From NCBI GenBank assembly GCA_963796275.1, contig CAWCKY010000007.1, forward strand, positions 352,001 to 416,000: DNA of 64,000 nt, given 5' to 3'. Below are positions 1 through 20,474 of the stretch, piece after piece. The stretch is from an uncultured Acidobacteriota bacterium (lineage in GTDB: Bacteria > Acidobacteriota > Blastocatellia > RBC074). A program made the translations under genes and the position numbers. Numbering within the stretch: position 1 is the stretch's first letter; every line of letters begins with the position of its first letter. Below the pieces are notes generated by a model. The model worked only from the letters and a program-made list of their open reading frames with translations, was not told the origin of the DNA and did no database searches.

Positions 1-428
1 AGCAGATCGTGCGCGGCGCAGGCGCGGTCAACGGAACCAACGAACTGCTGTTGGACGCGGCGGTGCGAGCGGCGGCGGCGAGCGGCAGCTGTTATCTCAC
101 CCTCGGTCTGTCGCCGCTCTCAAAACGAGGAGCAACACCGTCAGATTCCAATCCGCTCTGGCTGCGGATGCTGCTGACCTGGATGCGCGCTCATGGCAGG
201 CGATTCTATAACTTCGAAGGCGTGGATGCCTTCAAGGCGAAGTTCCAGCCAGATCGGTGGGAACCGGTCTATGCTATCGCCAATGAGCCGCGATTTTCAC
301 CGGATATGCTGTACGCTATCGCTGCCGCTTTCACCCAGGGGCGCCCTGTGAGTGCGGTTACCATTGCTCTTTGGCGTGCGCTTCGTCAGGAAGTTGAATG
401 GCTAGTGCAAAGAGAGATGCATATCTGA
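1..428 (+). CDS. C-terminal part of a DUF2156 / aminoacyl-phosphatidylglycerol synthase (MprF C-terminal-like) domain protein, 5' end outside window
   Basis: Motifs YLTLGLSPL and FYNFEGVDAFKAKFQPDRWEPVY match the aaPG synthase/DUF2156 C-terminus; the frame is open from the window edge. Confidence 0.8.
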   Translation, partial: QIVRGAGAVNGTNELLLDAAVRAAAASGSCYLTLGLSPLSKRGATPSDSNPLWLRMLLTWMRAHGRRFYNFEGVDAFKAKFQPDRWEPVYAIANEPRFSPDMLYAIAAAFTQGRPVSAVTIALWRALRQEVEWLVQREMHI

Positions 429-7292: not shown

Positions 7293-7373
7293 AATAGTTT
7301 TCAGTTTTCAGTTTTCAGACTTCGATAACGCAGTCAGTAACTGGAAACTGAAAACTAAAAACTGAAAACTATT
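7293..7373. repeat. Palindrome with (TTTTCAG)n / (CTGAAAA)n heptamer arms between convergent genes; possible bidirectional terminator
   Basis: agttttcagttttcagttttcag ... ctggaaactgaaaactaaaaactgaaaact. Confidence 0.8.
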
Positions 7374-9198
7374 ATTGCGGCCCGGGGGTAGCGGTAGCGA
7401 TTGGCAGCGGCTTACTTTCACTCACCCCGCTACCCTCTTTTACAATATGAAGCTGATTGATGGCGACATTAGCTAACTTATCGACCTTGCCGCTGGGCCA
7501 TTCAATATCGACCCGCTCGATCCTTTCGACCAGTCCCAGTCCGAACGTGACGGGCAGTTCGCTCTGCGAGCAGTAGCTCGATCCGCTCCGCACCATCTGC
7601 CACTGCTTTGCGCCTCCAACGGGATAGATCGTGATCTTCGCGCCGATGCCGTCACGGTTCGATTTAGCACCTATCGTTCTGAATTTGACGAAGCGGTTTT
7701 GATTGCCGCCATCGTTGCGCAGGAGATATGCCGGGCCGCCGTTGGTTGTGACCAGGATGTCCGGGTCGCCATCGTTATCGTAATCGCCATAAGCGGCACC
7801 GCGCGCAACGATCGCCCGGGCGAATGGTTTGCCGGCTTTACGCGTGACTTCGGTGAATTTCCGTTTGCCCTCGTTGCGGAATATTTGCGGGCGCTGCGCG
7901 TAGGTGATCTTCGGCTGCACTTTATTGATATCGTCGGCTACGTGGCCGTTGGCCATGAAAATATCCGGCAGCCCATCGAGATTGTAATCGAAGAAGAATG
8001 TGGCGAAGGTCAGCGAGAGCTGCGTATCGCGGCCGACATTCGATGACGGCGCTTCGTCGATGAAGAGGCCCTGGCCCTGGTTGTGGAAGATGGCGAGCAT
8101 TTCGTTGGAGAAGTTGCCGACTATTATGCTCGGATTGCCCGATCCGTCGATATCTGCAGCGTCTGTTCCCATCCCGCCCCGCGCTTTGCCTTCTTCGCTG
8201 AATGCGACTCCTGAGGTTACTGCTTCGTCGCTGAATGTCCCGTTGCCGTTGTTCTTCCAGAGTTTGTTCGGCTGCGTGTCGTTGGCGACGAATATATCCG
8301 GCCAGCCATCGCGGTTGTAATCGAGGATGGTGACACCCAGAGATTTACCGGGCGGGTCTTCGATCATCCCAGCTTTTTCCGTCACGTCGACAAATTTGCC
8401 GCCGGCATTATGATAGAGGCGGGAGTTCTGGCCTTTGTACTTTTCGGGAGTGCAGTAGCTCTTGTTCGTGCCGTCGAGTGCGCAAAATGCGTCAGTTTCC
8501 GGCGACCATTCGACATAGTTGCAGAGGTATAAATCCAGTTTTCCGTCTTTGTCATAATCGACAAATGCAGCCGACGATGAAAAATATGGGGGGCCGGCCA
8601 ATCCGGTCTTCGTCGTCGAATCGGAGAATTTGCCGTTGCCGAGGTTGCGAAACAGACGATTCTGTCCGAGCGCCGTAACGAATAGATCATCCCAGCCGTC
8701 GTTGTCGTAATCGCCTACTGCTACGCCCTGTCCATATATCTGTTTCGCCAGACCCGACTGAGATGTGACATCGCTGAAAGTTCCGTTTTGATTATTGTGA
8801 TAGAGCGCCATGAACGAACGGCGTTTTTTCGGAGCTTCTTCAAAATCCATACTGTTAATCAGAAGGATGTCCTGCCAGCCGTCATTGTCATAGTCGATGA
8901 AGGCGCAGCCGGAGCCGTTGGTCTCGGGTAGATATTTTTTACCGAACGCTCCGTTGTTGTGGCGGAAACGAATGCCGGCCTGCTGTGTGACATCGGTGAA
9001 TTCGATGGGCGTAAATTTTGCCGGGTCCAGCGGTGTTGGCGATGGTGAGGACGATGCCGGCGGTGTCGAACTGGCTACTGTCTGCGGCGGCGTCGCATTT
9101 GATTGCGCATTATTCGAGTGTTGTTGGTGGCAGGCAGTAGTGAGTATTAACAAAAAGATAGGGCAGAGCGAAAAATAACGTACAACCGTATGCATCAT
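7372..9198 (-). CDS. CRTAC1-family lipoprotein (FG-GAP repeats plus ASPIC/UnbV domain)
   Basis: Lipobox LTTAC; repeated DYDNDG motifs; C-terminal NRDGIGAKI...GSSYCSQSELPVTFGLG...IEWPSG. Confidence 0.9.
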   Translation of the reverse strand: MMHTVVRYFSLCPIFLLILTTACHQQHSNNAQSNATPPQTVASSTPPASSSPSPTPLDPAKFTPIEFTDVTQQAGIRFRHNNGAFGKKYLPETNGSGCAFIDYDNDGWQDILLINSMDFEEAPKKRRSFMALYHNNQNGTFSDVTSQSGLAKQIYGQGVAVGDYDNDGWDDLFVTALGQNRLFRNLGNGKFSDSTTKTGLAGPPYFSSSAAFVDYDKDGKLDLYLCNYVEWSPETDAFCALDGTNKSYCTPEKYKGQNSRLYHNAGGKFVDVTEKAGMIEDPPGKSLGVTILDYNRDGWPDIFVANDTQPNKLWKNNGNGTFSDEAVTSGVAFSEEGKARGGMGTDAADIDGSGNPSIIVGNFSNEMLAIFHNQGQGLFIDEAPSSNVGRDTQLSLTFATFFFDYNLDGLPDIFMANGHVADDINKVQPKITYAQRPQIFRNEGKRKFTEVTRKAGKPFARAIVARGAAYGDYDNDGDPDILVTTNGGPAYLLRNDGGNQNRFVKFRTIGAKSNRDGIGAKITIYPVGGAKQWQMVRSGSSYCSQSELPVTFGLGLVERIERVDIEWPSGKVDKLANVAINQLHIVKEGSGVSESKPLPIATATPGPQ

Positions 9199-9284
9199 AA
9201 ATTGTGTTATCGAGGTTAATCGAGAGACCTAGATAACTGAAGACAGTGCAATTTAAAGTTGGTTATTATCAACAGATTCTGATT

Positions 9285-9443
9285 GACTCCGGAGGAGCCC
9301 GATGTATATAGCCTTCGATTACCCAAGTCTCACAAGCTCCGGAGGAGCGATATACAGACATTCATTCATTCATATGTCGCTCCTGCTGAGCTTGTGAGAT
9401 GTGGGAGAACGAGTTCTATAAACATCCCGCGCCGATGGCGCTC
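9285..9443. repeat. REP/REPIN-like nested palindromic element
   Basis: cacaagctccggaggagcgatata pairs imperfectly with tatgtcgctcctgctgagcttgtg; outer gatgtatatag pairs with ctataaacatc. Confidence 0.65.
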
Positions 9444-9542
9444 AGGACCGATATCGTTGATTCAATGATCTTTTATTTGCACACTCTTCAGATAACTATA
9501 ACTCAATACATCCAACCGTCTGAATGCTCCTGGCCCATTCTC

Positions 9543-10559
9543 TTATTGAATGGAGATGTTTTTGATCGACAGAGGAATGAATCTTCGATCGATCAGGTCC
9601 TTCATTTCGATCGGTCTCTCCAGGATGCCCGCCTTGAGCGCCATATCGTGAATCTGCTGCAACTCTTCATCGGTCGGCGTCAGCATTCGATAGCTTACAC
9701 GGTCAGGAGGTTGCGTCAGCACATATCGTACGACTTTTTCATCCTGGCGAAAATAGGGGGCAGCGACCCTGGCTGCTTCGATACGATGTGTCTCCGCCCA
9801 CTCGCCGCTCTCGGCAATGCTGCGCACCAGGTCGCGCATTAGATCAGGGCGCTCATTTATCAGCTTCTCGGTGGCAACCAGAACGCAGGAGATGAACCTC
9901 GGCCAGATGTCCTTGGCGTGATAGAGCACGCGACCGCTGCCGTCGAGTTCCGCCTTGGCGGCGTGAGGCTCGCCGATAAAGTATGCGTCGATGGCTCTGG
10001 CTGCCAGCGCGCCCGGCATATCGGGCGGCGGCATCTCGACGAACCTGATCTCATCTTCTTTTACGCCCTGGTTTTCCATCAGCTTGCGAATGACGAGATT
10101 TTGATTGCTGTATTTCGAGGGTATGGCAAATGTCTTCCCGCGCAGATCGCGCAGGTCTTTGGCCGGAAGGTCCTTACGCACGATAACTGTGGATCCGTCG
10201 CGATGGCCCAGATACAGTATCTTCACGGGCACGCCCTGTTCGCGCAGTTTCATGGCGAGCGGCGCGATCATAAATGTCGCCTGCAGTCGACCACCCTTAA
10301 TCGACTCGACGATCGTGGGGAAATCGGTAAATCTCATCGACTCGAACCGAGTCGTCGCGCTGGTGCGGGTCGCAAAATCCGTCACCGGACACGTGAGATG
10401 TCAGGTGACCGGCAGGAAACCCACGCTGAGTTGCTCGCGCGGACTGTCGACCCTGCTCGATGTTTGTTCTACCTGCCACGGTTTGTACCGTAGCACCCCC
10501 AATACGATGATTGCCAGGATCGTGCCAATGACGATGCGTATAATCGGTGAATGAAACAT
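9543..10559 (-). CDS. ABC transporter substrate-binding protein (NrtA/SsuA/NMT1-like) with in-frame UGA at 10403-10401, probable selenocysteine (GFLPVT-U-HLTC)
   Basis: ORFs 10401..10604 and 9543..10385 are in the same frame and separated only by TGA CAT CTC ACG TGT CCG; ATG at 10559 precedes a TM anchor; lies in an operon with an ABC ATPase and permease. Confidence 0.85.
10377..10390 (-). promoter_or_regulatory. Candidate bacterial SECIS apical stem-loop
   Basis: GUCCG-GUGA-CGGAU on the mRNA strand; the loop starts with G at the 16th nt after the UGA. Confidence 0.55.
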
Positions 10560-10562
10560 AAA

Positions 10563-10655
10563 TAATTGATTATTGATAATTGATAATTGATAGTTGAAAT
10601 ACACTGTGGCAACAATTTAACCGAATCATCAATCATCCATTATCCATTATCAATT
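10563..10655 (+). repeat. Dispersed palindromic element, (TGATAAT)n arms with conserved core, copy 1
   Basis: ttgataattgataattgatagttgaaatacactgtggcaacaatttaaccgaatcatcaatcatccattatccattatcaatt. Confidence 0.85.
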
Positions 10656-11370
10656 CTCTTTCGAGACCCAGTTCTGTCAATATTCGATGTACGGCTTCGA
10701 CGACTTCCGGATGGGTCAGGTTGCGGGGTCGCGGTTCAAACAACCGCATCTCGCTGCGGACCTTCGCCGGACGTTCGGATAAAACGATGACTCGGTCGGC
10801 CAGTTGCGCGGCCTCTTCGATGTCGTGCGTCACGAGCACCACGGTGCGCGGGTGCTCGTCCAGCATACGCGCAAGTTCCTGGCGCATGCGCAACCGCGTC
10901 AGGTAATCGAGCGCGGAGAATGGTTCGTCGAGCAGCAGGACGTCCGTGTCGCCCGCCAATGCGCGCGCGATCTCGACTCTCTGCCGCATTCCGCCAGAGA
11001 GTTTGTGCGGGTGATGATTTTCGAAACCTTCGAGCCTGATCAATGCGATGAACTCGCTCAACTGGCGTTCGATTTCACGCTCATCCTTCAGATGTCTGAG
11101 ACCCAGCGCGATGTTTTCACTTACAGTCAGCCAGGGGAAAAGCCCGTCATTTTGATAGACCATCCGCATTCTTCCGGTGCGCGTGAGCTTGCCCGAGGAT
11201 GGATCGTCGAAGCCGGAGAGCAGGTTGAGCAGGGTCGTTTTGCCGCAGCCCGACGGCCCGACGACCGCGACGAATTCACCCCGCGCGATCTCGATATCAA
11301 GCGGCAGGATCACTTCGACTGCGCCGAAACTTCGCGTTACCTTATCCAATTGAAAGATGATATCTGTCAT
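10633..11370 (-). CDS. ABC transporter ATP-binding protein (SsuB/TauB/NrtD-like)
   Basis: Walker A GPSGCGKT, LSGGMRQR, LLLDEPFSALD, VTHDIEEA. Confidence 0.95.
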   Translation of the reverse strand: MTDIIFQLDKVTRSFGAVEVILPLDIEIARGEFVAVVGPSGCGKTTLLNLLSGFDDPSSGKLTRTGRMRMVYQNDGLFPWLTVSENIALGLRHLKDEREIERQLSEFIALIRLEGFENHHPHKLSGGMRQRVEIARALAGDTDVLLLDEPFSALDYLTRLRMRQELARMLDEHPRTVVLVTHDIEEAAQLADRVIVLSERPAKVRSEMRLFEPRPRNLTHPEVVEAVHRILTELGLERELIMDNG

Positions 11371-11378
11371 CTCATTTA

Positions 11379-12153
11379 TTATCTCTCATATCCCCATCGC
11401 ACGCTCTCGATCTTCATCAATTGTACGAGAAGTCGGTCGATCACCACACCGATGATACCGATGACGATCATTCCGACGACGAGCAGGTCCATCCTCAGTC
11501 CATTGCGCGCATCCCAGATGGCGAATCCCAGCCCATCGCGGCCTGCTATCATCTCGGCCGCGACCACAACGAGCCACGATAGTCCGGCGGTAACCCGCAA
11601 GGTGGTGATCACCTGCGGCGATATGGCGGGCAACGTCACCTGAATGAGCAACTCGAAGCCCTCGATACCGTAATCCCGCGCTACCCGGAAATAGACATTC
11701 GGGATGCTCGCGACTGCCGAGATGGTGGCCAGGACGATCGGGAAGAATGAGCGCCATGAAGATCAGGAAGATGGCGGGTTTATCGCCGATGCCGAACCAC
11801 AGGATCGCGAACGGAATCCAGGCGAGAGGCGAGAGGTTACGAAAAAAATTGATCGCCGGAAGCATCGCAGTCCGCGCGCGCGCGCGCTGGCCGAGCCACA
11901 AGCCAAGAGGAATGCCGGCGCCGGTAGCGAGAGCGAACCCTGCGGTCACTCGGAAGAGCGAAGCGACCACGTCATTGTACAGCCGCCCGCTCCCAACCTC
12001 TTCGCGGAATCCCTTCGCCACCGAGATCGGTGACGGAAAGATCGAGTCGGGAAAGAGGCGAAGCCAGGCCAACAGCCACCAGATTGCAATAATGATCGAA
12101 GCCACCAGAAGTGGTAACAACCGAGTTCTATCGGATACTGTAGTAGAAGTCAT
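11379..12153 (-). CDS. ABC transporter permease (SsuC/TauC-like) with an apparent +1 frameshift near 11751
   Basis: Removing one base at atg gcg [c] tca ttc joins IFLIFMA to SFFPIVLATISAVASIPNVY...VVVAAEMIAG; either an assembly indel or a pseudogene. Confidence 0.8.
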
Positions 12154-12400
12154 CTTATCCAGCCCTTTTAATTAATAATATATATGAGGCAAAAAGGGCA
12201 AAATGAGGAAAAAATGATTTTATTTGCTTTTACTCTATTTTCCCTGTTTCTCCCTCTCTCATGCAGAAATTTTGAGTCTATTCGTAAAATTCCCTTCGAT
12301 TTACATTCATTAATAAGCGAAAATATAATTTGAGTTATTACTGGCCGGAGGGATTGCCTTCGATTAAGACGCTACCGGAAGTATTAAGAGGAAAACTCAT

Positions 12401-12643
12401 ATGACGCCTGATGAATTGATTGAAAACCAAAGAACGATGCTCAGTTTTATGGCGCGCATCGAAGCCAACCAGGGTAAGCTCGATAGCGTGATTGCCAATC
12501 AAACTACAATCATTGAGAATCAAAATTTAATCAGAGCGAACCAGGAGAAACTGGATAAGCTGTTAGCCAATCAGGAGGTAATCCAGGCAAATCAGGCCAA
12601 AATATTGGCCAATCAAGCGGAGATTATTTCCCTGCTTGGATAG
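12401..12643 (+). CDS. Small heptad-repeat (IxxNQxx) coiled-coil protein
   Basis: Eight NQ-containing repeats in 80 aa; GAGGA RBS upstream. Confidence 0.75.
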   Translation: MTPDELIENQRTMLSFMARIEANQGKLDSVIANQTTIIENQNLIRANQEKLDKLLANQEVIQANQAKILANQAEIISLLG

Positions 12644-12746
12644 GGTTAATTCTTCAATCTCCGGATTGGTCTAATTGTATTGCTGATCGGCATGCCTAAG
12701 CGGCACTCGGCAGCTTAACAATTTACTGCCAATAATTCGTGAAGTA

Positions 12747-14090
12747 ATGATTGTAACAACTCAGCCGCGCAAGGAGCTCAAGCGACAACTCGGTCTAAGA
12801 GCGGCCACGGCAGTGGTGATCGGCGAGGTGATCGCCGTCGGCATCTTTCTCACCCCGGCCGGCATGGCGAAATCGCTCGGTTCTCCCATGTGGTTACTAA
12901 TAGTTTGGTTGGTGATGGGATTGATGGCTCTTTGCGGTGCGCTCTGTTATGGCGAGCTGGCCGCGCGTTTTCCCGAAGCGGGTGGAGGTTATGTTTACCT
13001 GCGCGAGGCTTACGGGCAGAAATTGGCATTTCTATATGGCTGGAAATGTTTTCTGGTAATGGATCCGGGAATCACGGCTGCACTGGCGGTCGGACTTTCC
13101 GGTTATCTAAGCTATCTCGTCACCCTCCCGCCCTTTGGCATAAAGTTATTCATCGTCGGAATAATCTGTGCGATTGCAGTCGTGAATATTTACGGTGTGC
13201 GGCTCGGATCTCGGTTGATGCAGTGTATTACAGCGGTCAAACTCGGCTCGCTGGCGCTAATCGTATTGTGGGCGGTTATTTCAAGACCCGGTAGCATGTC
13301 ACATTTCACGCCATTCCTCTCTCAGCGAACGGGCTCCGAGCCTCTGGTTACTGCCCTCGCGGGTGCCCTGGTAGCCGGGTTCTTCTCATTCGGCGGCTGG
13401 TGGGACCTGAGCAAGCTCGGGGGTGAGGTTCGCGATCCCGTGCACACCTTACCGCGCGCGATGGCCATCGGCGTGCTGGCTGTAACCGCCGTTTATGTAC
13501 TGACCAGCGCAGTCTTCCTATACCTCGTTCCATTGGAGCGCGTAACTTCGGGTGAGACGTTCGCGGCGCAGGCTGGCGAGGCGCTTTTCGGCTCCGCCGG
13601 CGGATGGGTCTTTTCGCTCATCGTGATAGTGTCGATTTTTGGCAGCCTGGCCGGCTTTATGATGGCGGCGCCGCGCGTCTACTACGCGATGGCTCGTGAC
13701 GGAGTTTTTTTCGACTTCGTCTCCGCCGTACATCCGCGCTTCGGCACGCCCGTGCGCGCGATAGTCTTGCAGGTCGTGATGGCGCTGCTACTGGTAACGT
13801 TGGGCACTTTCGAAAATATCATAGCTTACTTCATCTTTGTGACAGTGCTCTTCATCGGTCTTACCGTCGCCGCTGTTTTCATCCTGCGCCGTCGCCACGG
13901 TAATTTATCGCAATACCGCATCGTCGGTTATCCGTTGACGCCGTCATTTTTTCTGCTACTGGTGACAATCCTCCTGGTTCTGCTCGGCGCTAACAGTACC
14001 CGACAGGCCGTACTCGGGTTGGGGGTAGTTGCTCTGGGGGTGCCTGTTTATCATCTGTTTTTTCAGCGGCAGTCACGTACCGACGAATGA
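12747..14090 (+). CDS. APC-family amino acid permease
   Basis: VIAVGIFLTP, ALCYGELAARFPEAGGGYVYL, PRVYYAMARDG; about 12 TM segments. Confidence 0.92.
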   Translation: MIVTTQPRKELKRQLGLRAATAVVIGEVIAVGIFLTPAGMAKSLGSPMWLLIVWLVMGLMALCGALCYGELAARFPEAGGGYVYLREAYGQKLAFLYGWKCFLVMDPGITAALAVGLSGYLSYLVTLPPFGIKLFIVGIICAIAVVNIYGVRLGSRLMQCITAVKLGSLALIVLWAVISRPGSMSHFTPFLSQRTGSEPLVTALAGALVAGFFSFGGWWDLSKLGGEVRDPVHTLPRAMAIGVLAVTAVYVLTSAVFLYLVPLERVTSGETFAAQAGEALFGSAGGWVFSLIVIVSIFGSLAGFMMAAPRVYYAMARDGVFFDFVSAVHPRFGTPVRAIVLQVVMALLLVTLGTFENIIAYFIFVTVLFIGLTVAAVFILRRRHGNLSQYRIVGYPLTPSFFLLLVTILLVLLGANSTRQAVLGLGVVALGVPVYHLFFQRQSRTDE

Positions 14091-14252: not shown

Positions 14253-17200
14253 ATGATCACGAACAAATTCCAGATTTCAATCCTCAAATTTGAGATAACA
14301 CTCATCCTGATACTAGCCGTCACACTGGCAGGTTGTAACGGCAGGGGAAACCTTCCCGATCCCTCCTCGAGAGAATATCGCGATGCCGTCTCGGCCTTCT
14401 ATGTCGGTTTGGGCGCTTTGCAGGCGACCGACGATATACGCGCTAAGCAACGGCTCACGCGATTCACCGAGCTCGCACCGGGGGAGCCGGCCGGTTGGGT
14501 AAATCTGGGTGTACTTGCGCTGAGGCAGCAGGAGTTCGACGCGGCATATGAAAACCTCGAAAAGGCGCGCGCGATAGTCCCCGATGACAGCCGCATCGAG
14601 GGGATGCTCGGCCTGGTCGAAACGAAGCGCGGCAGATTTGCCGAAGCGATCGCGCATCTGCGCAAGGCGGTCGAGCTCGACCAGAAGAATTTGAAGGCGA
14701 TCTATGGGCTCGCGCAGGAGATCGAGCGGCAGGGCGCTGAGAACAGCGAAGTGGAAGTGCAGAATTTGATCGAGAAGATCCTACAAGTCCAGCCTGACAA
14801 TCTGGCGGCGCAGCTTGAATCGATTCGCATTGCCGCGAAACGCGGCGACGCAGAAACGGCTAAGCGAATCGTCGGGGGCATCGGCCAGAAGGCATCGGAC
14901 TGGCCACCGGAGATCGTTGCACAATTGAATGCATTGCAGGCGGCTGTCAATGGCCCGAATGTGCGGGCCGCCGCAACCCAGGTGGCTTTTTTGCGAAATG
15001 TTCTGGTGCGCTTACCCGATTATCGCCAAAGTCTGGCGGCGATCAGAAATCCGACCGAAGAGACGGGCGAACCGTTTGATAGGTTTTTGAAGTTGGCCTC
15101 GCCGAAGCTCGAGGCTGCCCCGCCGGATGAGGGATTAGCTTTCAACGCAGAGCCGATTGATGCCGGTGAAGGGAAGTGGGCCATGGTCGGAGCGATAACG
15201 CTCGACAGCGATGGCCCGCCTGTGGCCTTCACCGTCGATCAGCGAAATGTGCGAATAGGCGGCCAGTCGCTCACATTTCCGACCGGCGGAGAGATGATTA
15301 ATTCGAATGCGGTGGCGGGGATCGATTACGACTACGATTTCAAAACCGACCTGGCGGCGGCTGGCAGAGGCGGTTTCAAGCTCTACCGTCAGGAATCCCG
15401 CGATAAATTTATCGATGTTACGGCCCGGATGGGTTTGCCGCCGGCGCTGACGAACGCCGCTTATGACGGCGTATGGGCGGCGGATATCGACCTCGATGGA
15501 GATCTCGATATCGTGCTCGGTGCTGTCGCCGGCCAGCCGCCTGTGTTCAGGAATAACGGCGACGGAACGTTCAAGGAGTTGCGGCCATTCGCCGGGAGCG
15601 AAGGGCTGCGTGGCTTCGTCTATGCGGACTTTGATGGCGACGGCGATCCGGACGCGGCTCTGCTCGATGCCAATGCAAGATTGAAATTTTTCAGCAATGA
15701 ACGGCTCGGAGTTTTTCGCGAACGGGCCTTGCCGCCAAACATCGAGTCGATCAGCGCCCTTGACGTGGCTGACATAAACGGCGATGGCGTTCTAGATCTG
15801 CTTCTGCTGGATTTCAACCTGGCGGTGAAGCGTATCTCCGACAAAGGCGCGGGTGAAGGATGGGAGATAGTTGATGTCTTTGGGAGGCAAGCGGATGGCG
15901 CCACCGTGCCTCCGTCGCCGGGTTCGGTGAAGCTAGTCTCGGGCGATTTCGATAACAACGGATTGCTGGACCTGGCATTCGGCGGATTTATCTGGCTCAA
16001 CGGATCACCAGGAAAGAACCCGCGCCGGATCGATACGGGAAATACGACCGCCACTTCCTCGGCGGATCTAACCGGAGACGGGCGTCTCGATTTGCTGGCG
16101 ATGAATGCGGAGCGACGGCCGGTCAGACTCATCAACCGGGGCACTAAGGACTACCACTGGCAAGTCATCCGCCCGCGCGCCGCCAAATCCACAGGCGACC
16201 AGCGCATCAACTCATTCGGCATCGGTGGGGAGATCGAAATCCGCGCCGGACTGCTCTTCCAGAAACAGGTCATCGATTCTCCTCTGGTTCATTTCGGTTT
16301 GGGCGAGCAAACGCAGACTGACGTTGCGCGCTTCATCTGGCCGAACGGTTCCATTCAGGGCGAATTCGAATTGAAAGCCGATCAGGCGGTGCTGGCCGAG
16401 CAGCGATTGAAGGGCTCGTGTCCATGGCTCTTCGCCTGGAATGGCAGGTCGATGGAGTTCGTCAAGGACTGCGCGCCCTGGAGTCCGGCATTGGGTCTGA
16501 ACATAAACGCGCAGGTTACCGCCGGCATACAACAGACTGAAGAATGGATGAAGATTCGCGGCGACCAGCTCGCGCCACGCGATGGGTATTACGATCTGCG
16601 CGTCACCGCGGAATTGTGGGAGACCTACTATATCGATCATTATTCGCTCGTTGTGGTAGATCATCCGGCAGAAACTGAAATTTTCGCCGATGAGCGTTTC
16701 TCCATCCCTCCGCCCGAATTGAAACTCTACGCGACATCCAGACCCAGACCTTTCAGCCGGGCCGTCGATGACAACGGGCAGGATGTGACCGCCGTGGTCG
16801 GTGCATTGGACGAGAAATACCTCGATACATTCGGGCGCGGGCGCTATCAGGGGCTAACGCGCGATCACTACGTCGAACTCGCATTGCCCGATGAGGCTCC
16901 GCGCGCGGGCCGCCTTTGGTTGATCGCGCATGGTTTCGTGCATCCGACCGATACCACCGTCAATATGGCGATGAGCCAGCCCTACGATTACGTCCCCCCG
17001 AAAGGGCTGAGCCTCGAAGCGCCCGATGGCAAGGGCGGGTGGCGCGTCGTCGACCCCAACATCGGCTTTCCCGCGGGCAAGAAGAAGACGATGCTCATCG
17101 ATTTGACGAAAGTCATGACGCTCGACTCGCCGCGCCGCATTCGCCTGCGAACGAATATGGAGGTCTACTGGGATAAGCTGGAATGGGCGGAGGGCCTGCC

Positions 17201-17717
17201 GGAAGCGCAATTCAAAACGCAACGGTTCAATGCCGAAACGGCAGAGTTGCGTTTTCGCGGATACTCGGTGGTGGCGAGGGCCGACGATTCATCGCCTGAG
17301 TTGCCCGATTACAACCGGCTGGAATTCACCGGGCAGAAGTGGCGCGATATGATCGGTTACTTTACTCGTTACGGGGATATCCGCGAGTTGCTCGAAAAAG
17401 TCGATGACCGGATGGTATTCACCAATGCAGGCGATGAAGTGAGATTGCGCTTCAAAGCAGTGGCTGATCCGCCTGCCGGCTGGACGCGCGATTACGTGAT
17501 GATCGGTAACGGCTGGATCAAAGATGGTGATTACAATTCGACTTTCTCGAAGACGGTTCTGCCATTGCCCGATGCGAAGATGCGGGAATACACTAAACCT
17601 CCCTCGCGTTTGGAAGATGATCCGGTCTATCAGCGCCACGCACGCGACTGGCAGGAGTTTCATACACGATATGTGTCGCCAGATCGGTTCCGGAACGCGA
17701 TGAAACCATTAGATTAA
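14253..17717 (+). CDS. Large TPR + FG-GAP + ASPIC/UnbV lipoprotein
   Basis: Lipobox LAGC, N-terminal TPRs, DxDxDG repeats, VHFGLG, KGSCPWLFAWNG. Confidence 0.85.
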   Translation: MITNKFQISILKFEITLILILAVTLAGCNGRGNLPDPSSREYRDAVSAFYVGLGALQATDDIRAKQRLTRFTELAPGEPAGWVNLGVLALRQQEFDAAYENLEKARAIVPDDSRIEGMLGLVETKRGRFAEAIAHLRKAVELDQKNLKAIYGLAQEIERQGAENSEVEVQNLIEKILQVQPDNLAAQLESIRIAAKRGDAETAKRIVGGIGQKASDWPPEIVAQLNALQAAVNGPNVRAAATQVAFLRNVLVRLPDYRQSLAAIRNPTEETGEPFDRFLKLASPKLEAAPPDEGLAFNAEPIDAGEGKWAMVGAITLDSDGPPVAFTVDQRNVRIGGQSLTFPTGGEMINSNAVAGIDYDYDFKTDLAAAGRGGFKLYRQESRDKFIDVTARMGLPPALTNAAYDGVWAADIDLDGDLDIVLGAVAGQPPVFRNNGDGTFKELRPFAGSEGLRGFVYADFDGDGDPDAALLDANARLKFFSNERLGVFRERALPPNIESISALDVADINGDGVLDLLLLDFNLAVKRISDKGAGEGWEIVDVFGRQADGATVPPSPGSVKLVSGDFDNNGLLDLAFGGFIWLNGSPGKNPRRIDTGNTTATSSADLTGDGRLDLLAMNAERRPVRLINRGTKDYHWQVIRPRAAKSTGDQRINSFGIGGEIEIRAGLLFQKQVIDSPLVHFGLGEQTQTDVARFIWPNGSIQGEFELKADQAVLAEQRLKGSCPWLFAWNGRSMEFVKDCAPWSPALGLNINAQVTAGIQQTEEWMKIRGDQLAPRDGYYDLRVTAELWETYYIDHYSLVVVDHPAETEIFADERFSIPPPELKLYATSRPRPFSRAVDDNGQDVTAVVGALDEKYLDTFGRGRYQGLTRDHYVELALPDEAPRAGRLWLIAHGFVHPTDTTVNMAMSQPYDYVPPKGLSLEAPDGKGGWRVVDPNIGFPAGKKKTMLIDLTKVMTLDSPRRIRLRTNMEVYWDKLEWAEGLPEAQFKTQRFNAETAELRFRGYSVVARADDSSPELPDYNRLEFTGQKWRDMIGYFTRYGDIRELLEKVDDRMVFTNAGDEVRLRFKAVADPPAGWTRDYVMIGNGWIKDGDYNSTFSKTVLPLPDAKMREYTKPPSRLEDDPVYQRHARDWQEFHTRYVSPDRFRNAMKPLD

Positions 17718-17807
17718 TGGATAATTGATAATGGATAATTGATAATTCGTATAAACTGAGGCAACAATCTAACCGAATTATCAATTATCAATTATCCAAT
17801 TATCTAT
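17715..17807 (+). repeat. Dispersed (TGATAAT)n-arm palindromic element, copy 2
   Basis: Core ttcgtataaactgaggcaacaatctaaccgaa flanked by inverted heptamer arms. Confidence 0.85.
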
Positions 17808-17818
17808 TCCCCATATAT

Positions 17819-19615
17819 ATGAATAATCGCATCACACGAATCGTACTGATAATTTTCTTTATCGCGCTGCTGGCCACGCCGCTCATCATCAAGCAGCTGA
17901 ACGCGCGTAACGAAATAGCCCGGTCTTCAATTGATCCGGCCACCGCGCTGTCTCGCTACGGGTTTTATATGGAAGAGTCGGCGAAATCCGCCGGCATAGA
18001 GTTTAATCATCAGGCGCCGACCTTCGATGCGAAGCTCAGTCATATAATGACGCAGGTCGCAGTCGTCGGCGCGGCCGTCTCGGTGGTGGATTTCGATCGT
18101 GATGGCTGGAACGACTTTTACGTCACCAACAGCGGCGAAGGCAGCAGGAACGCGCTTTATCGCAACCTGGGCAAAGGCGTATTCAAAGATGTCGCGGGAG
18201 AAGCCGGGGTGGCCGAGCTGAACAGCCGCGAGCTGGGGGTTTCGATGGGCGCGGTGTGGGGTGATTACGATAACGATGGATACGAGGACCTGTTCTTATA
18301 CCGCTGGGGGCGGCCCGAGTTGTTTCACAACGCCGAGGGGAAGCGGTTTACGCGAGTGACGGAGGCGGCTGGATTTCCCCAATGGATCAACGCCGGCACC
18401 GCCATCTGGTTCGATTACGACCGCGACGGAAAGCTCGATCTGTTCATCGGCGGCTACTATTCCGAAAAGGTAGACCTCTGGCGGCTCACGGACACCAAAA
18501 TGATGCCCGAGAGCTTCGAGTATGCGAACAACGGCGGTCGCAAATATCTTTACCGCAATCTGGGCGGGGGGAAGTTTGAAGAAGTGGGAGAGAAGTTAGG
18601 CCTCAAATCGACACGCTGGTCGTTCGCGGCGGTCGCGGCCGATCTGCGGGGCACGGGTTATCCCGATCTCTTCGTCGCCAACGATTACGGCGTCTCTGAA
18701 CTGTTCTTCAACGACGGCGGAAAGCGATTTCGCGAAGTGGGAGGAGCGACGGGAGTAGGTTATTCGCCGAAGAGCGGAATGAATGCGAGCGTGGGTGATG
18801 TTTTGAACCGCGGCCATTTTGCCATCTATGTTTCGAACATCAGCGAAGAGGGAATACTGCTGCAGGGCAACAATCTCTGGGTACCGCGTGAGGGAACTTC
18901 GGGCGACGATATCAAATACGACAACCTGGCGCGTGATATGGGCGTCGAGCTGGGGAAATGGAGTTTCGGCGCGCAATTTGGCGATTTGAATAATGACGGC
19001 AAGCTCGACCTCTATTTGGTCAACGGGTATGTTTCGGCTGACCGCGACAACACCTACTGGTACGATTTCTCGAAAGTAGCCGGCGGTAACAAATCTATTA
19101 TCTCCGATGCGAAGAACTGGCCGCCGATGGATGGCCGGAGCCTCGCCGGTTACCAGCAGAAGCGCGTGTGGATCAACGACGGTGCGGGAAAATTCAACGA
19201 GGTAGCGCAGGCCGTAGGCGTGACCGATGTATACGATGGACGCTCGGTTGCGCTGGCGGATTTCGGCAATCGCGGCGTGCTCGATGCCGTGACAGCGAAC
19301 CAGCGCGGGCCGGTGCTCTATTATCGCAACACGGTCGATCCTGGAAATAATTGGATAGACCTCGAGCTTGAAGGAACGACCAGCAACCGGAGCGCCATTG
19401 GCGCCCAGGTGCGCGTTTTTTGGAATGGGCAGACGCAGATTCAGGAAGTCGCAGGCGGCAGCGGGTTCTGCGCGCAGAATCAACGCCGATTACATTTCGG
19501 CCTGGGCAAGGGGGCGCAGCTCGAGAAGGTTGAGATTCGCTGGCCGTCGGGTAAAATACAGACTCTTTCCGCCCTTGAGCTAAACAAAGTCCATCGTTTG
19601 AAGGAGCCGGTGTAG
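17819..19615 (+). CDS. CRTAC1-family protein (FG-GAP plus ASPIC/UnbV)
   Basis: DFDRDG/DYDNDG repeats; NRSAIGAQV...GSGFCAQNQRRLHFGLG...IRWPSG. Confidence 0.9.
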   Translation: MNNRITRIVLIIFFIALLATPLIIKQLNARNEIARSSIDPATALSRYGFYMEESAKSAGIEFNHQAPTFDAKLSHIMTQVAVVGAAVSVVDFDRDGWNDFYVTNSGEGSRNALYRNLGKGVFKDVAGEAGVAELNSRELGVSMGAVWGDYDNDGYEDLFLYRWGRPELFHNAEGKRFTRVTEAAGFPQWINAGTAIWFDYDRDGKLDLFIGGYYSEKVDLWRLTDTKMMPESFEYANNGGRKYLYRNLGGGKFEEVGEKLGLKSTRWSFAAVAADLRGTGYPDLFVANDYGVSELFFNDGGKRFREVGGATGVGYSPKSGMNASVGDVLNRGHFAIYVSNISEEGILLQGNNLWVPREGTSGDDIKYDNLARDMGVELGKWSFGAQFGDLNNDGKLDLYLVNGYVSADRDNTYWYDFSKVAGGNKSIISDAKNWPPMDGRSLAGYQQKRVWINDGAGKFNEVAQAVGVTDVYDGRSVALADFGNRGVLDAVTANQRGPVLYYRNTVDPGNNWIDLELEGTTSNRSAIGAQVRVFWNGQTQIQEVAGGSGFCAQNQRRLHFGLGKGAQLEKVEIRWPSGKIQTLSALELNKVHRLKEPV

Positions 19616-19619
19616 GAGT

Positions 19620-20474
19620 ATGACACCAGAAGTCAGTGCATCAACGGCGGCGCCACACGCGCCGTATTCGACCCTGATCAGGGCGTTCAAGAAGTTCTTC
19701 AGTTTCGAGAATCGTTATCTAGCGCCGGCGCTGGTGACGGTAATCCTGCTCATAGGTCAACTCACCTTCGGATTTCTGGAGAGCTATTGGAAGACTGCGC
19801 TCGCGATCGCTACGGCGATTGGGCTCGAATTTCTACTGGGCCGCCTCTTCTGGGGCAAGTGGCCTCATCCGGCGAGCGCTTACATCTCCGGCATCAGCGT
19901 CGGGATGCTGGTGCGGTCGCCCGCGATCTGGCCTTATGCGCTGTGCAGTTTGATATCGATCACCTCGAAATATGTCCTGCGCGTAAAGGACCGTCACATC
20001 TGGAATCCATCGAATTTCGGCATTTGCGCCATGTTGTTCCTGGCCCCTTTCAGCGTGGCGGGTCTGAGCATTCAGTGGGGCAACGAGCTCTGGCCAATGG
20101 CGGTTGTCTGGGCGCTGGGATCCGTCATCATCTATCGTCTCAAACGATTTCACATCTGCGCGACTTACGTCATCTCGTTTATCGCCCTTGCGTATGTGCG
20201 CAGTATATTTACGGGCCACCCGTTCCTGGCGGAAGTAGCGCCGATCACCGGCCCGATGTATCAGCTCTTCGTTTTCTTTATGATCACCGATCCGAAGACG
20301 ACGGTGCAGAGCAAATGGGGGCAATGTGTGGTGGCATTCTGCGTCGCGCTTGCTGAAATGGTCCTGCGGCTGAATCAGAGTGTACACGCGCCCTACTACG
20401 CGCTCTTCATAGTCGGGCCGGCGGCGAACCTGATCGAGATAATGTGGAAATCGCGCAAGAATCGCGCGCGGTGA
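19620..20474 (+). CDS. RnfD/NqrB-like (UnbU-like) integral membrane protein
   Basis: SKYVLR...HIWNPSNFG and FFMITDPKT motifs; polytopic membrane protein. Confidence 0.75.
   Translation: MTPEVSASTAAPHAPYSTLIRAFKKFFSFENRYLAPALVTVILLIGQLTFGFLESYWKTALAIATAIGLEFLLGRLFWGKWPHPASAYISGISVGMLVRSPAIWPYALCSLISITSKYVLRVKDRHIWNPSNFGICAMLFLAPFSVAGLSIQWGNELWPMAVVWALGSVIIYRLKRFHICATYVISFIALAYVRSIFTGHPFLAEVAPITGPMYQLFVFFMITDPKTTVQSKWGQCVVAFCVALAEMVLRLNQSVHAPYYALFIVGPAANLIEIMWKSRKNRAR

What the first reader, a model, noticed from the sequence alone, without database searches (positions are those of the whole stretch)
9543..10559. Hidden selenoprotein: ABC binding protein with in-frame UGA in a U-x-x-x-C motif
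Seen: the ORF track splits this gene in two, but both parts are in frame and read GGT TTC CTG CCG GTC ACC TGA CAT CTC ACG TGT CCG, giving GFLPVT-U-HLT-C-P. The upstream part supplies the membrane anchor and first beta-strand that the 280-aa part lacks; read-through gives 338 aa. The UGA falls in the N-terminal ligand-binding loop region of NrtA/SsuA-type proteins, four residues before a Cys. Known: UGA encodes Sec when followed by a SECIS, and Sec-containing ABC binding proteins have been reported in other lineages, so the family may not be wholly new. Inference: a Sec/Cys pair binds a soft metal or forms a covalent or redox link to the substrate, which is unusual chemistry for an importer.
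Basis: partly seen in the sequence, partly recalled or inferred. Interest (0 to 1): 0.85.

Follow-up and report, generated by a model that had tools for sequence, protein, structure and literature searches.

The report
Selenocysteine in a transporter binding protein
The apparent stop codon inside this soil bacterium's nutrient-uptake binding protein very probably encodes selenocysteine, in a widespread protein family that the selenoprotein catalogues I searched do not list and that gene callers cut short.

Summary
Window 10559..9543 (minus strand) is one 338-codon frame with a single TGA at codon 53, in the motif GFLPVT-U-HLT-C-P.

The selenocysteine (Sec) reading holds.
- In 184 related loci from three searches, this codon is TGA in 43, TGC or TGT in 141, and nothing else.
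- Only the TGA forms keep two hairpins just downstream. They show suppressed synonymous change and 4 compensatory base pairs.
- The second hairpin has the same G-U-U apex as the selD hairpin of this genome.
- The genome holds selA, selB, selD, tRNA-Sec and a Sec-type fdhA.

The protein is a membrane-anchored, SsuA/NrtA-fold binding protein of a three-gene ABC importer. Its closest solved structure is the zinc-bound S. aureus protein 3UN6.

Sec sits where relatives carry Asp, His or Cys, alongside near-invariant His119 and Cys225. I therefore infer that it ligates a metal in the binding cleft. That part is not shown, and the substrate is unknown.

It is not SaoX or SaoB, the published Sec-containing binding proteins. 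TGA forms occur in Pyrinomonadaceae-type Acidobacteriota and in Planctomycetota.

In this assembly the adjacent permease gene carries a one-base frameshift, probably an assembly error.

The parts
9543..10559 (-). Gene for the 338-aa Sec-containing substrate-binding protein (NMT1_2 / SsuA-NrtA fold); ATG at 10559, stop at 9545..9543
   Evidence: translation. (PF13379, 97.9 bits). (TIGR01728, 130 bits, below its cut-off of 163.5). (AlphaFold2 model, pLDDT 93.4). (3UN6, 274.6 bits).
10485..10547 (-). N-terminal hydrophobic helix (residues 5-25), a membrane anchor or uncleaved signal. It lies upstream of the TGA.
   Evidence: helix 5-25; sequence. The 280-aa ORF lacks it.
10401..10403 (-). Codon 53, TGA, read as selenocysteine
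   Evidence: the aligned codon is TGA in 43 of 184 related loci and TGC/TGT in the other 141.
10389..10391 (-). Codon 57, TGT (Cys), the C of the U-x-x-x-C motif. It is invariant in every close relative looked at.
   Evidence: motif HLTCP in all rows. Cys57 occurs only in rows without Cys224.
10356..10393 (-). Hairpin 1 of the Sec-insertion element, at +11 to +48 counting the U of UGA as +1; 12 base pairs. Probably a structured spacer.
   Evidence: Pairs 21-39 (GC to CG in 4 distinct sequences) and 24-37 (GC to UA in 1) are compensatory.
10338..10354 (-). Hairpin 2 of the Sec-insertion element, at +50 to +66; 7 base pairs with a G-U-U apex. Probably the SelB-binding hairpin.
   Evidence: pairs 50-66 and 52-64 are compensatory; the selD hairpin of this genome has the same CAG-GUU-CUG type of apex; the fdhA apex is CCA-GUC-UGG.
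10633..11370 (-). ABC transporter ATP-binding subunit, 245 aa
   Evidence: PF00005, 109 bits. (nearest named families PotA, SaoA and NrtCD types, all below cut-off). Same position in 7 of 7 orthologous loci.
11379..12153 (-). ABC transporter permease, broken in this assembly by one extra base near 11751. The N-terminal half reads in the frame of 12153; the C-terminal half reads in the frame that ends at 11381..11379.
   Evidence: contigs of relatives in X2, X4 and X5 lack one base at 11751. Intact orthologs hit PF00528.
14253..20474 (+). Three genes that sit directly upstream of the ABC genes, on the same strand, in relatives: TPR + FG-GAP protein (14253..17717), FG-GAP + UnbV_ASPIC protein (17819..19615), and an RnfD-like membrane protein (19620..20474). 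In this genome they are on the other strand, separated by an amino-acid permease gene (12747..14090).
   Evidence: window; same six-gene order in 6 of 6 long Pyrinomonadaceae-type loci. TPR/FG-GAP or ASPIC genes lie next to the transporter in 3 of 10 loci of the distant subfamily.

Best explanation
Window 10559..9543 (minus strand) is a single gene for a 338-residue, membrane-anchored substrate-binding protein. It belongs to a NitT/TauT-type ABC importer encoded in the order permease, ATPase, binding protein.

Codon 53 (UGA) is decoded as selenocysteine. A two-hairpin element follows it on the mRNA: a 38-nt hairpin at +11 to +48, then a 17-nt hairpin at +50 to +66. The G-U-U apex of the second hairpin matches the selD Sec-insertion hairpin of the same genome. 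I infer that the second hairpin binds SelB and that the first is a folded spacer that brings it near the UGA.

Sec stands at the tip of the first strand, in the loop that lines the ligand cleft. In the wider 3UN6-like clade this position is Asp, His or Cys and is accompanied by near-invariant His119 and Cys225. I therefore infer that Sec53, with Cys57, His119 and Cys225, ligates a metal ion in the cleft. That metal could be a zinc-type centre that captures the real substrate, or a soft metal that is itself the cargo.

Shown here: one gene, the Sec/Cys alternation, the conserved RNA structure, the Sec machinery, the fold and the operon. Inferred: the roles of the two hairpins, the metal ligation, and direction of transport. 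The substrate is unknown.

My odds are about 0.93 that this is a real selenoprotein and about 0.5 that Sec acts as a metal ligand.
For: 1. One frame with a single TGA.

2. Sec/Cys alternation at the aligned codon.
- Own family of genomes: 9 TGA and 15 TGY in 24 loci from 23 of 87 genomes.
- Metagenome contigs: 19 TGA and 61 TGY in 80 loci.
- A subfamily that is 46-50% identical, labelled mostly Planctomycetota and Verrucomicrobiota: 15 TGA and 65 TGY in 80 loci. The TGA forms carry Gemmataceae, Isosphaeraceae, Planctomyces and similar labels.
- No other residue appears in these 184 loci.

3. RNA element.
- Among the 9 genomic TGA forms, synonymous difference falls to 0.11-0.20 in the 10-codon windows starting at codons 0 to +15 after UGA, against about 0.45 gene-wide. 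The Cys forms stay at 0.33-0.44 in the same windows.
- The 19 metagenomic TGA forms keep 17-19 of the 19 pairs (mean 18.8). The 61 Cys forms keep 9-19 (mean 13.0).
- On all 28 TGA forms (18 distinct), 98.5% of cells are paired and 4 pairs change on both sides. 0 of 500 shuffles reach this, and slid controls give 19-43% paired.
- Apex triloops in this genome: binding-protein hairpin 2 has GUU at +57..59, selD has GUU at +37..39, and fdhA has GUC at +23..25.
- The Planctomycete TGA forms carry a different long hairpin starting about +13.

4. Sec machinery in this genome: selA 559.8 bits, selB 335.9, selD 358.7 (itself with 1 TGA), tRNA-Sec 62.6, all above cut-off. fdhA has 1 TGA in the motif ARL-U-HGP. 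selA is above cut-off in 81 of 87 genomes of the family, including all 9 with the TGA form.

5. Fold and site.
- AlphaFold2 model, pLDDT 93.4.
- Best solved relative is 3UN6, titled as zinc-bound: profile E 8.8e-81, Foldseek E 3.6e-27. It has His at the Sec position.
- In 52 aligned rows, position 53 is D in 18, H in 12, C in 10, other in 4 and gap in 8. His119 is present in 47 of 52 and Cys225 in 42 of 52. Cys57 occurs in 7 rows, none of which has Cys224. The pair Cys224-Cys225 occurs in 22 rows, none of which has Cys57.
- PMC13592312 (passages read) models 3UN6-like binding proteins as binding zinc or another metal through two Cys and one or two His.

6. Operon: permease and ATPase are adjacent in 7 of 7 orthologous loci.
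Against: - There is no experimental evidence of selenium in the protein.
- No Rfam family, including the SECIS families, matched window 9000..13000 at E <= 1, apart from weak chance-level hits.
- The 71-nt stretch around the UGA folds no better than shuffles (z = -0.27).
- If hairpin 2 is the SelB site, its apex lies 54 nt after the UGA, against 34 nt in selD and 20 nt in fdhA of this genome. That is unusually far.
- I held no model coordinates, so the proximity of residues 53, 57, 119 and 225 was not measured. The zinc ligands of 3UN6 were not inspected.
- One cluster representative (P0124, 63% identical) shows Gly at the position, in VTGHLTCP (1 of the 89 representatives aligned across the site).
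- The permease gene of this very operon is frameshifted in this assembly, so the system could be inactive in this strain.
- selA is present in nearly all genomes of the family, so its co-occurrence with TGA forms does not discriminate.
Confidence: 0.8

Rival explanations
1. It is a real selenoprotein, but Sec53 and Cys57 form a redox-active selenylsulfide pair. The pair would capture or reduce a thiol, disulfide, persulfide or selenium compound covalently before hand-over to the permease, or would act catalytically as the N-terminal Cys does in the SBP-fold enzyme DszB. It would not ligate a metal.
For: - The U-x-x-x-C motif with both residues invariant resembles the Sec/Cys redox pairs of most known selenoproteins. 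This is established knowledge; the review PMC13188914 lists mostly UxxC and CxxU motifs (passages).
- Residue 57 starts helix 56-66 and residue 53 lies in the turn just before it, so the two side chains could be near each other.
- DszB structures with a C27S mutant appear among the fold matches (ranks 40 and 46). This shows that the fold can carry a reactive N-terminal Cys.
Against: - In relatives, position 53 is Asp (18 of 52 rows) or His (12 of 52), which are not redox residues, while His119 and Cys225 stay conserved. That pattern fits a metal site better.
- The nearest solved structure is titled as zinc-bound.
- The residue-level match to DszB Cys27 was not established. The profile match to DszB covers only residues 185-332.
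Confidence: 0.2
2. The UGA is read through or recoded by something other than Sec-tRNA, for example near-cognate Trp or Cys insertion. The conserved hairpins would then serve read-through or regulation.
For: The hairpins match no curated SECIS model, and the spacing to hairpin 2 is long.
Against: - The only alternative residue in 184 loci is Cys.
- The full Sec machinery is present.
- The apex of hairpin 2 matches that of the selD Sec hairpin in the same genome.
- TGA otherwise ends genes in this window; for example, the N-terminal frame of the permease gene ends on TGA at 11388.
Confidence: 0.03
3. The TGA is a true stop. The gene would then be a pseudogene, a sequencing error, or two separate genes: a 52-residue peptide and a 280-residue protein starting at the GTG at 10385.
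For: - This assembly does contain indel errors. Its tuf gene on contig 6 is split over three frames, and the neighbouring permease gene has a one-base insertion.
- Public gene calls give the 280-aa form: P0034, P0101 and P0115.
Against: - The same TGA recurs in 42 other loci from two phyla, with the reading frame conserved on both sides from residue 1.
- A 280-aa product would lack the anchor and the first strand of the fold.
- The near-identical contig of run X1 carries the same base.
- Synonymous-site conservation downstream is specific to the TGA forms.
Confidence: 0.02

Closest known systems
SaoX (NCBIfam NF040735), the extra binding protein of the SAO locus of anaerobes (Haft and Gwadz, bioRxiv 10.1101/2022.07.06.499078; abstract and sections 15-17 read)
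   Same: - It is an SsuA/NMT1-like binding protein of a NitT/TauT-type ABC system.
- It has conserved Cys residues predicted to converge on a metal site.
- A few members carry Sec.
- The nearest or near-top named NCBIfam families for this operon's subunits are also Sao models: SaoP for the permease (top hit) and SaoA for the ATPase (second to PotA).
   Different: - The score is 64.6 bits against a cut-off of 300.
- The paper places Sec of SaoX at 191-192 (TU). Here it is residue 53, in U-x-x-x-C.
- None of the other SAO genes (MerB-like SaoL, SaoC, SaoT, SaoD, SaoE) appeared in the Pfam scans of the neighbourhoods.
- The hosts are soil Acidobacteriota and Planctomycetota, not anaerobic Clostridia, spirochetes or deltaproteobacteria.
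SaoB (NF040727), the Sec-containing binding protein of the SAO ABC transporter
   Same: It is an ABC substrate-binding protein whose Sec, next to Cys, is predicted to line the binding pocket. Gene callers truncate or split it at the UGA.
   Different: - There is no NCBIfam match at E <= 0.01.
- It has a CU dipeptide, not U-x-x-x-C.
- The paper relates it to a different branch of binding proteins (structures 3VVE, 4ZV2).
PDB 3UN6, ligand-binding component of an ABC import system of Staphylococcus aureus with zinc bound (function unknown)
   Same: - It is the closest solved relative: 274.6 bits over residues 30-333 and Foldseek E 3.6e-27.
- It shares the GH(R/H) motif and the Cys at position 225.
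   Different: - It has His where this protein has Sec (ITH versus VTU).
- It has Cys-Cys at 224-225 and no Cys57 (alignment).
- It is not a selenoprotein.
Binding proteins encoded next to clade B carbon-monoxide dehydrogenases (PMC13592312 and PMC6344411; passages read)
   Same: They are 3UN6-like NitT/TauT binding proteins, modelled with a metal held by two Cys and one or two His. Their substrate is also unknown.
   Different: No CODH gene lies near this locus or its relatives. No Sec is reported for them in the passages I read.
Sec-containing BtuF-type cobalamin-binding protein (listed in the table of review PMC13188914 with motif CxxU; passage read)
   Same: It is a periplasmic binding protein of an ABC importer that carries Sec.
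   Different: It belongs to a different fold class of binding proteins (cd01144) and has a different motif. I did not compare it here.

Membership tests
Bacterial selenoprotein (UGA decoded as Sec) | In-frame UGA that aligns with Cys in homologs, with conservation on both sides | tested here: met
   43 TGA, 141 TGC/TGT and 0 other in 184 loci. Frames are continuous from residue 1.
Bacterial selenoprotein (UGA decoded as Sec) | Stem-loop (SECIS) immediately downstream of the UGA, within the coding region | tested here: met
   Two hairpins at +11..48 and +50..66, with 98.5% of cells paired and 4 compensatory pairs on 28 TGA forms. They are kept in TGA forms and eroded in Cys forms. The apex resembles that of selD in the same genome. 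No curated Rfam SECIS model matched.
Bacterial selenoprotein (UGA decoded as Sec) | selA, selB, selD and tRNA-Sec in the genome | tested here: met
   All four are above the curated cut-offs.
Bacterial selenoprotein (UGA decoded as Sec) | Selenium shown in the protein | not testable with these tools
   This needs 75Se labelling or mass spectrometry.
SaoX (NF040735) | Score at or above the curated cut-off of 300 bits | tested here: not met
   64.6 bits.
SaoX (NF040735) | Encoded in the nine-gene SAO locus, together with the MerB-like SaoL and the other SAO genes | tested here: not met
   Neighbours are FG-GAP/ASPIC, TPR and RnfD-like proteins and an amino-acid permease. No SAO-type family turned up.
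SaoB (NF040727) | Match to the family model; CU motif | tested here: not met
   The family is not among the 8 NCBIfam families with E <= 0.01. The motif here is U-x-x-x-C.
SsuA family, aliphatic sulfonate binding proteins (TIGR01728) | Score at or above the cut-off of 163.5 bits | tested here: not met
   130 bits. It shares the fold but is not a member.
NMT1_2 (PF13379) / class F binding-protein fold | Pfam gathering score; two-lobe fold matching SsuA, TauA and NrtA | tested here: met
   97.9 bits against a cut-off of 24.7. Foldseek matches to SsuA, TauA, NrtA and CmpA have E values from 1e-13 to 1e-19.
3UN6-like binding proteins with a metal site | Conserved His (position 119) and Cys (position 225), plus a third ligand after strand 1 | tested here: met
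   H119 and C225 are present. The position-53 column holds D, H or C/U. Alignment to 3UN6.
3UN6-like binding proteins with a metal site | Metal actually bound by these residues | not testable with these tools
   No coordinates of the model or of 3UN6 were available, and there are no metal analyses.
Binding-protein-dependent ABC importer | Adjacent permease (BPD_transp_1) and ATPase (ABC_tran) genes | tested here: met
   The permease is frameshifted in this assembly only.

The most novel reading that the evidence does not exclude
This would be the founding example of an unrecognised, ancient selenoprotein family of ABC-importer binding proteins in aerobic soil Acidobacteriota and Planctomycetota. 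Its Sec-Cys-His-Cys site would be the substrate site itself, making the transporter a dedicated high-affinity uptake system for a chalcophile element. That element could be a soft metal such as copper, or selenium or sulfide species (the 2026 review states that no specific selenium importer is known in prokaryotes). The transporter would work together with the FG-GAP/ASPIC, TPR and RnfD-like proteins encoded beside it. Its Sec-insertion signal, a structured 38-nt spacer hairpin followed by a distal SelB hairpin 54 nt from the UGA, would extend the accepted spacing rules for bacterial SECIS elements.
Probability: 0.1. Interest if true: 0.85.

Novelty: new variant of a known kind. Interest (0 to 1): 0.6.

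Why it matters
Selenoproteins are nearly all redox enzymes. Sec in transporter subunits was first proposed only in 2022, and then for strict anaerobes.

This case puts Sec in the ligand cleft of an extracytoplasmic binding protein in aerobic soil phyla. About a quarter of the family members sampled use TGA, and the Sec/Cys state changes at least 14 times on a 103-sequence tree.

Three practical consequences follow.
- Gene callers truncate these genes to about 280 residues without a signal anchor, as in P0034, P0101 and P0115. Annotations and selenoproteome counts for soil bacteria are therefore wrong at this gene.
- The paired natural Sec and Cys forms offer a ready-made experiment on what Sec adds at a binding site.
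- The two-hairpin element with its distal apex tests search tools that require the apex close to the UGA. I recall a range of 16-37 nt from the bSECISearch model; no call checked this.

If the metal-site reading holds, this is a new use of selenium in solute capture.

Tried and rejected
- The small hairpin that includes the UGA itself (GUCACC...GGUGAC) is rejected as the SECIS. It folds no better than shuffles (z = -0.27), it is broken in two TGA forms (L033 and L035 have GUGACC), and it arises from the invariant PVT...PVT codons.
- The Rfam scan of window 9000..13000 at E <= 1 found no SECIS family and no riboswitch that could name the substrate. It gave only chance-level miRNA-like hits on two palindromic stretches and one weak tmRNA_permuted hit.
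- selA co-occurrence: selA is present in 81 of 87 genomes of the family. It is compatible with the Sec reading but does not separate TGA forms from Cys forms.
- Sequencing runs: no RNA holder is listed, so nothing can be said on expression. All runs laid were contigs, so depth and ends say nothing. X1 has no contig across 11684..11774, so the permease frameshift could not be checked in the near-identical run.
- NCBIfam gave no informative name for the FG-GAP/ASPIC, TPR and RnfD-like neighbours.
- The search of earlier findings by place and with the window protein returned nothing.
- Literature searches and term look-ups in the 2026 review found no report of this family. The terms UxxxC, NMT1, PF13379 and PF09084 each had 0 occurrences, and 'ABC transporter' appeared only for SaoX, SaoB and SaoP. 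Subscription papers and bioRxiv supplements were not visible and may list it.
- I did not fetch a SaoX sequence, so the residue-level relation between Sec53 here and the Cys/Sec positions of SaoX is open.
- I could not measure distances in the model because no coordinates were available in the script box.
Full report
**Observation.** translates window 10559..9543 on the minus strand as one frame of 338 codons. It has a single internal stop, TGA at codon 53 (window 10403..10401), in ...SVGFLPVT-U-HLT-C-PVTDF... Every part of the description is correct.

**What the protein is.**
- Pfam gives NMT1_2 (97.9 bits) and NMT1.
- The best NCBIfam hit is the SsuA family at 130 bits, below its cut-off of 163.5. 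SaoX scores 64.6 against a cut-off of 300.
- The AlphaFold2 model built on 81 sequences is confident: mean pLDDT 93.4, with helix 5-25, a low-confidence linker, and then the two-lobe binding-protein fold starting with strand 42-48.
- The closest solved relative by profile (8.8e-81) and by fold (3.6e-27) is 3UN6, a Staphylococcus aureus ABC binding component crystallised with zinc. SsuA, TauA, NrtA, CmpA and the regulatory domains of NrtC/CmpC follow.
- Directly upstream on the same strand lie an ABC ATPase (10633..11370) and a permease (11379..12153). The same three genes lie together in 7 of 7 orthologous loci.
- Names that public sources give to full-length relatives place the organism among Blastocatellia / Pyrinomonadaceae (Acidobacteriota).

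**Is the TGA a selenocysteine codon?**

*Machinery.* The genome (9.46 Mb, 7 contigs) has selA (559.8 bits), selB (335.9), selD (358.7, itself with an in-frame TGA) and tRNA-Sec (62.6), all above their curated cut-offs. It also has a formate dehydrogenase with TGA in ARL-U-HGP.

*Homologs.*

| Search | Loci | TGA | TGC/TGT |
|---|---|---|---|
| 87 genomes of the same family (23 carry the gene) | 24 (includes a 48%-identical paralog and a partial copy) | 9 | 15 |
| Metagenome contigs | 80 | 19 | 61 |
| Subfamily 46-50% identical, found by aligning N-terminally truncated cluster representatives | 80 species genomes | 15 | 65 |
| Total | 184 | 43 | 141 |

No other codon occurs at the site, and HLTCP is invariant. 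In the distant subfamily the records are labelled mostly Planctomycetota and Verrucomicrobiota. All its TGA forms sit in records labelled Gemmataceae, Isosphaeraceae, Planctomyces and the like, plus two whose labels look like binning errors. One exception appeared among cluster representatives: P0124 has Gly in VTGHLTCP (1 of the 89 representatives aligned across the site).

*RNA.*
- Among the 9 genomic TGA forms, synonymous difference drops to 0.11-0.20 in the 10-codon windows starting at codons 0 to +15 after the UGA, from about 0.45 elsewhere. The 13 Cys forms show 0.33-0.44 there. I left out the partial L046 and the paralog L047.
- The constrained stretch folds into two hairpins, at +11..48 and +50..66.
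- On all 28 TGA forms of this branch (18 distinct), 98.5% of cells pair and four pairs change on both sides: 21-39, 24-37, 50-66 and 52-64. 0 of 500 shuffles reach these values, and slid controls pair 19-43%.
- The metagenomic TGA forms keep 17-19 of 19 pairs. The Cys forms keep 9-19, mean 13.0. The few Cys forms that keep all pairs are close kin of TGA forms.
- Hairpin 2 ends in a G-U-U triloop. The hairpin after the selD UGA of this genome also ends in GUU, at +37..39. The fdhA hairpin ends in GUC, at +23..25.
- I therefore read hairpin 2 as the SelB-binding hairpin and hairpin 1 as a conserved folded spacer. This is inference.
- The Planctomycete TGA forms carry a different long hairpin from about +13.

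*Points against.* No Rfam SECIS model matched. The local fold is no more stable than shuffles. The 54-nt distance to the apex is long.

*Base call.* A contig of run X1, near-identical to the window, covers 10183..10592, and no difference is listed at the codon.

**Evolution.** I built a DNA tree of 103 orthologs with the codon and the element masked. None of the 80 metagenome rows was dropped; only the partial L046 was. The tree needs at least 14 changes between Sec and Cys, and at least 11 are forced by well-supported branches. The same two-hairpin element is shared by distant TGA forms. Repeated Sec-to-Cys replacement from a Sec ancestor is therefore more economical than repeated gain. The tree alone cannot give the direction.

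**How it may work.**
- Position 53 lies just after strand 1, in the loop that lines the cleft in this fold class. This is established for SsuA and NrtA. The model has strand 42-48, a turn at 52-54 and helix 56-66.
- In 52 aligned rows of the wider clade, the position is Asp in 18, His in 12, Cys in 10, other in 4 and gap in 8.
- His119 is kept in 47 of 52 rows and Cys225 in 42 of 52.
- Cys57 (7 rows) never coincides with Cys224. The Cys224-Cys225 pair (22 rows) never coincides with Cys57.
- 3UN6 has His, His and Cys-Cys at these places and is titled as zinc-bound.
- A 2026 paper models 3UN6-like binding proteins as holding a metal with two Cys and one or two His, and notes a likeness to beta-carbonic-anhydrase sites (PMC13592312, passages).

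The most economical reading is that Sec53 is a ligand of this cleft metal, with Cys57 replacing Cys224. I could not measure distances or inspect the 3UN6 ligands, so this stands at about even odds. The main rival is a redox or covalent Sec53-Cys57 pair. The substrate is unknown, and no riboswitch or regulator names it.

**Comparison with what is known.**
- Haft and Gwadz (preprint; abstract and sections 15-17 read) described SaoB (CU motif), SaoX (rarely Sec, TU at 191-192) and the permease SaoP in a nine-gene locus of anaerobes. They stated that no earlier Sec-containing ABC binding protein was known.
- The table of the 2026 review lists SaoX, SaoB, SaoP and a BtuF-type protein. It has no entry with UxxxC, NMT1, PF13379 or PF09084 (passages).
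- This protein fails the SaoX and SaoB models, has Sec at another site, lacks the SAO neighbours, and lives in other phyla.
- My four literature searches found no report of it. Unseen subscription papers or supplements could hold one.
- Within this scan, an earlier unchecked note (e1-1246637) describes what is probably the same broad family in another genome. Notes e1-5229109 and e1-5229110 link a related Sec binding protein to copper genes. I saw no copper genes in the 16 neighbourhoods scanned.

**Surroundings.**
- In 6 of 6 long Pyrinomonadaceae-type loci the gene order is: TPR + FG-GAP (about 1170 aa), FG-GAP + UnbV_ASPIC (about 600 aa), RnfD-like membrane protein (about 290 aa), permease, ATPase, binding protein.
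- In the window the first three genes lie at 14253..20474 on the other strand.
- TPR/FG-GAP or ASPIC genes also flank the transporter in 3 of 10 loci of the distant subfamily.

**Permease frameshift.** The window's permease gene has one extra base near 11751.
- All 7 orthologs read through in one frame.
- Contigs of relatives in three runs lack that base.
- The tuf gene on contig 6 of this assembly is split over three frames, so indel errors are present and the frameshift is probably an artefact.

**Verdict.** It is a new family within a recently described kind. It occurs in at least two phyla and is routinely mis-annotated. Its chemistry and substrate are inferred, not shown.

Noticed in passing
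window 11379-12153 (minus strand), break near 11751: The ABC permease gene is frameshifted by one extra base, in the context ATGGCGCTCATTC. All 7 orthologous loci and contigs of relatives in three runs lack that base. The near-identical run X1 has no contig across the site.
   Followed up: yes
L005 (G000 contig 6, about 1279100-1280300, minus strand): An EF-Tu (tuf) gene is split over three reading frames with at least four frame changes. This indicates indel errors in the assembly.
   Followed up: partly
window 14253-20474 and 7372-9198; loci L048-L053: Genes for a TPR + FG-GAP protein, an FG-GAP + UnbV_ASPIC protein and an RnfD-like membrane protein are conserved next to this transporter: collinear in 6 of 6 long loci, rearranged in the window. 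Three of those six loci continue with Asn-synthase-like and FAD/halogenase-like genes, with a weak radical-SAM hit between them in one. Function unknown.
   Followed up: partly
window 9300-9420: A long imperfect palindrome lies in the 345-nt gap after the binding-protein gene. The only Rfam hits are weak miRNA-like ones at 9319-9410, on both strands. It may be a terminator or a small repeat element.
   Followed up: no
window 10560-10632: An AT-rich run of 7-base repeats (ATCAATT-like) lies between the ATPase and binding-protein genes. It draws very high depth from unrelated metagenome contigs, and X1 shows a 7-base insertion behind 10634.
   Followed up: no
L011 (G000 contig 7: 302299-303228) and L134 (contig 6: 913900-916929): selD itself has an in-frame TGA (VDCAG-U-ASK) about 50 kb upstream of the window. 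A formate dehydrogenase alpha subunit has TGA in ARL-U-HGP. Both are followed by hairpins with G-U-U/C apex loops.
   Followed up: partly
L149: 1433-1771: In a Planctomyces-labelled genome, a 112-aa ORF matching only the C-terminal part of the iodothyronine-deiodinase family lies upstream of the Sec-form binding-protein gene. It may be another selenoprotein gene cut at its UGA.
   Followed up: no
protein P0124 (cluster representative, 63% identical): It has Gly at the Sec/Cys position in an otherwise intact VTGHLTCP motif. This is the only non-Cys, non-TGA case seen among close relatives. Its DNA was not examined.
   Followed up: no
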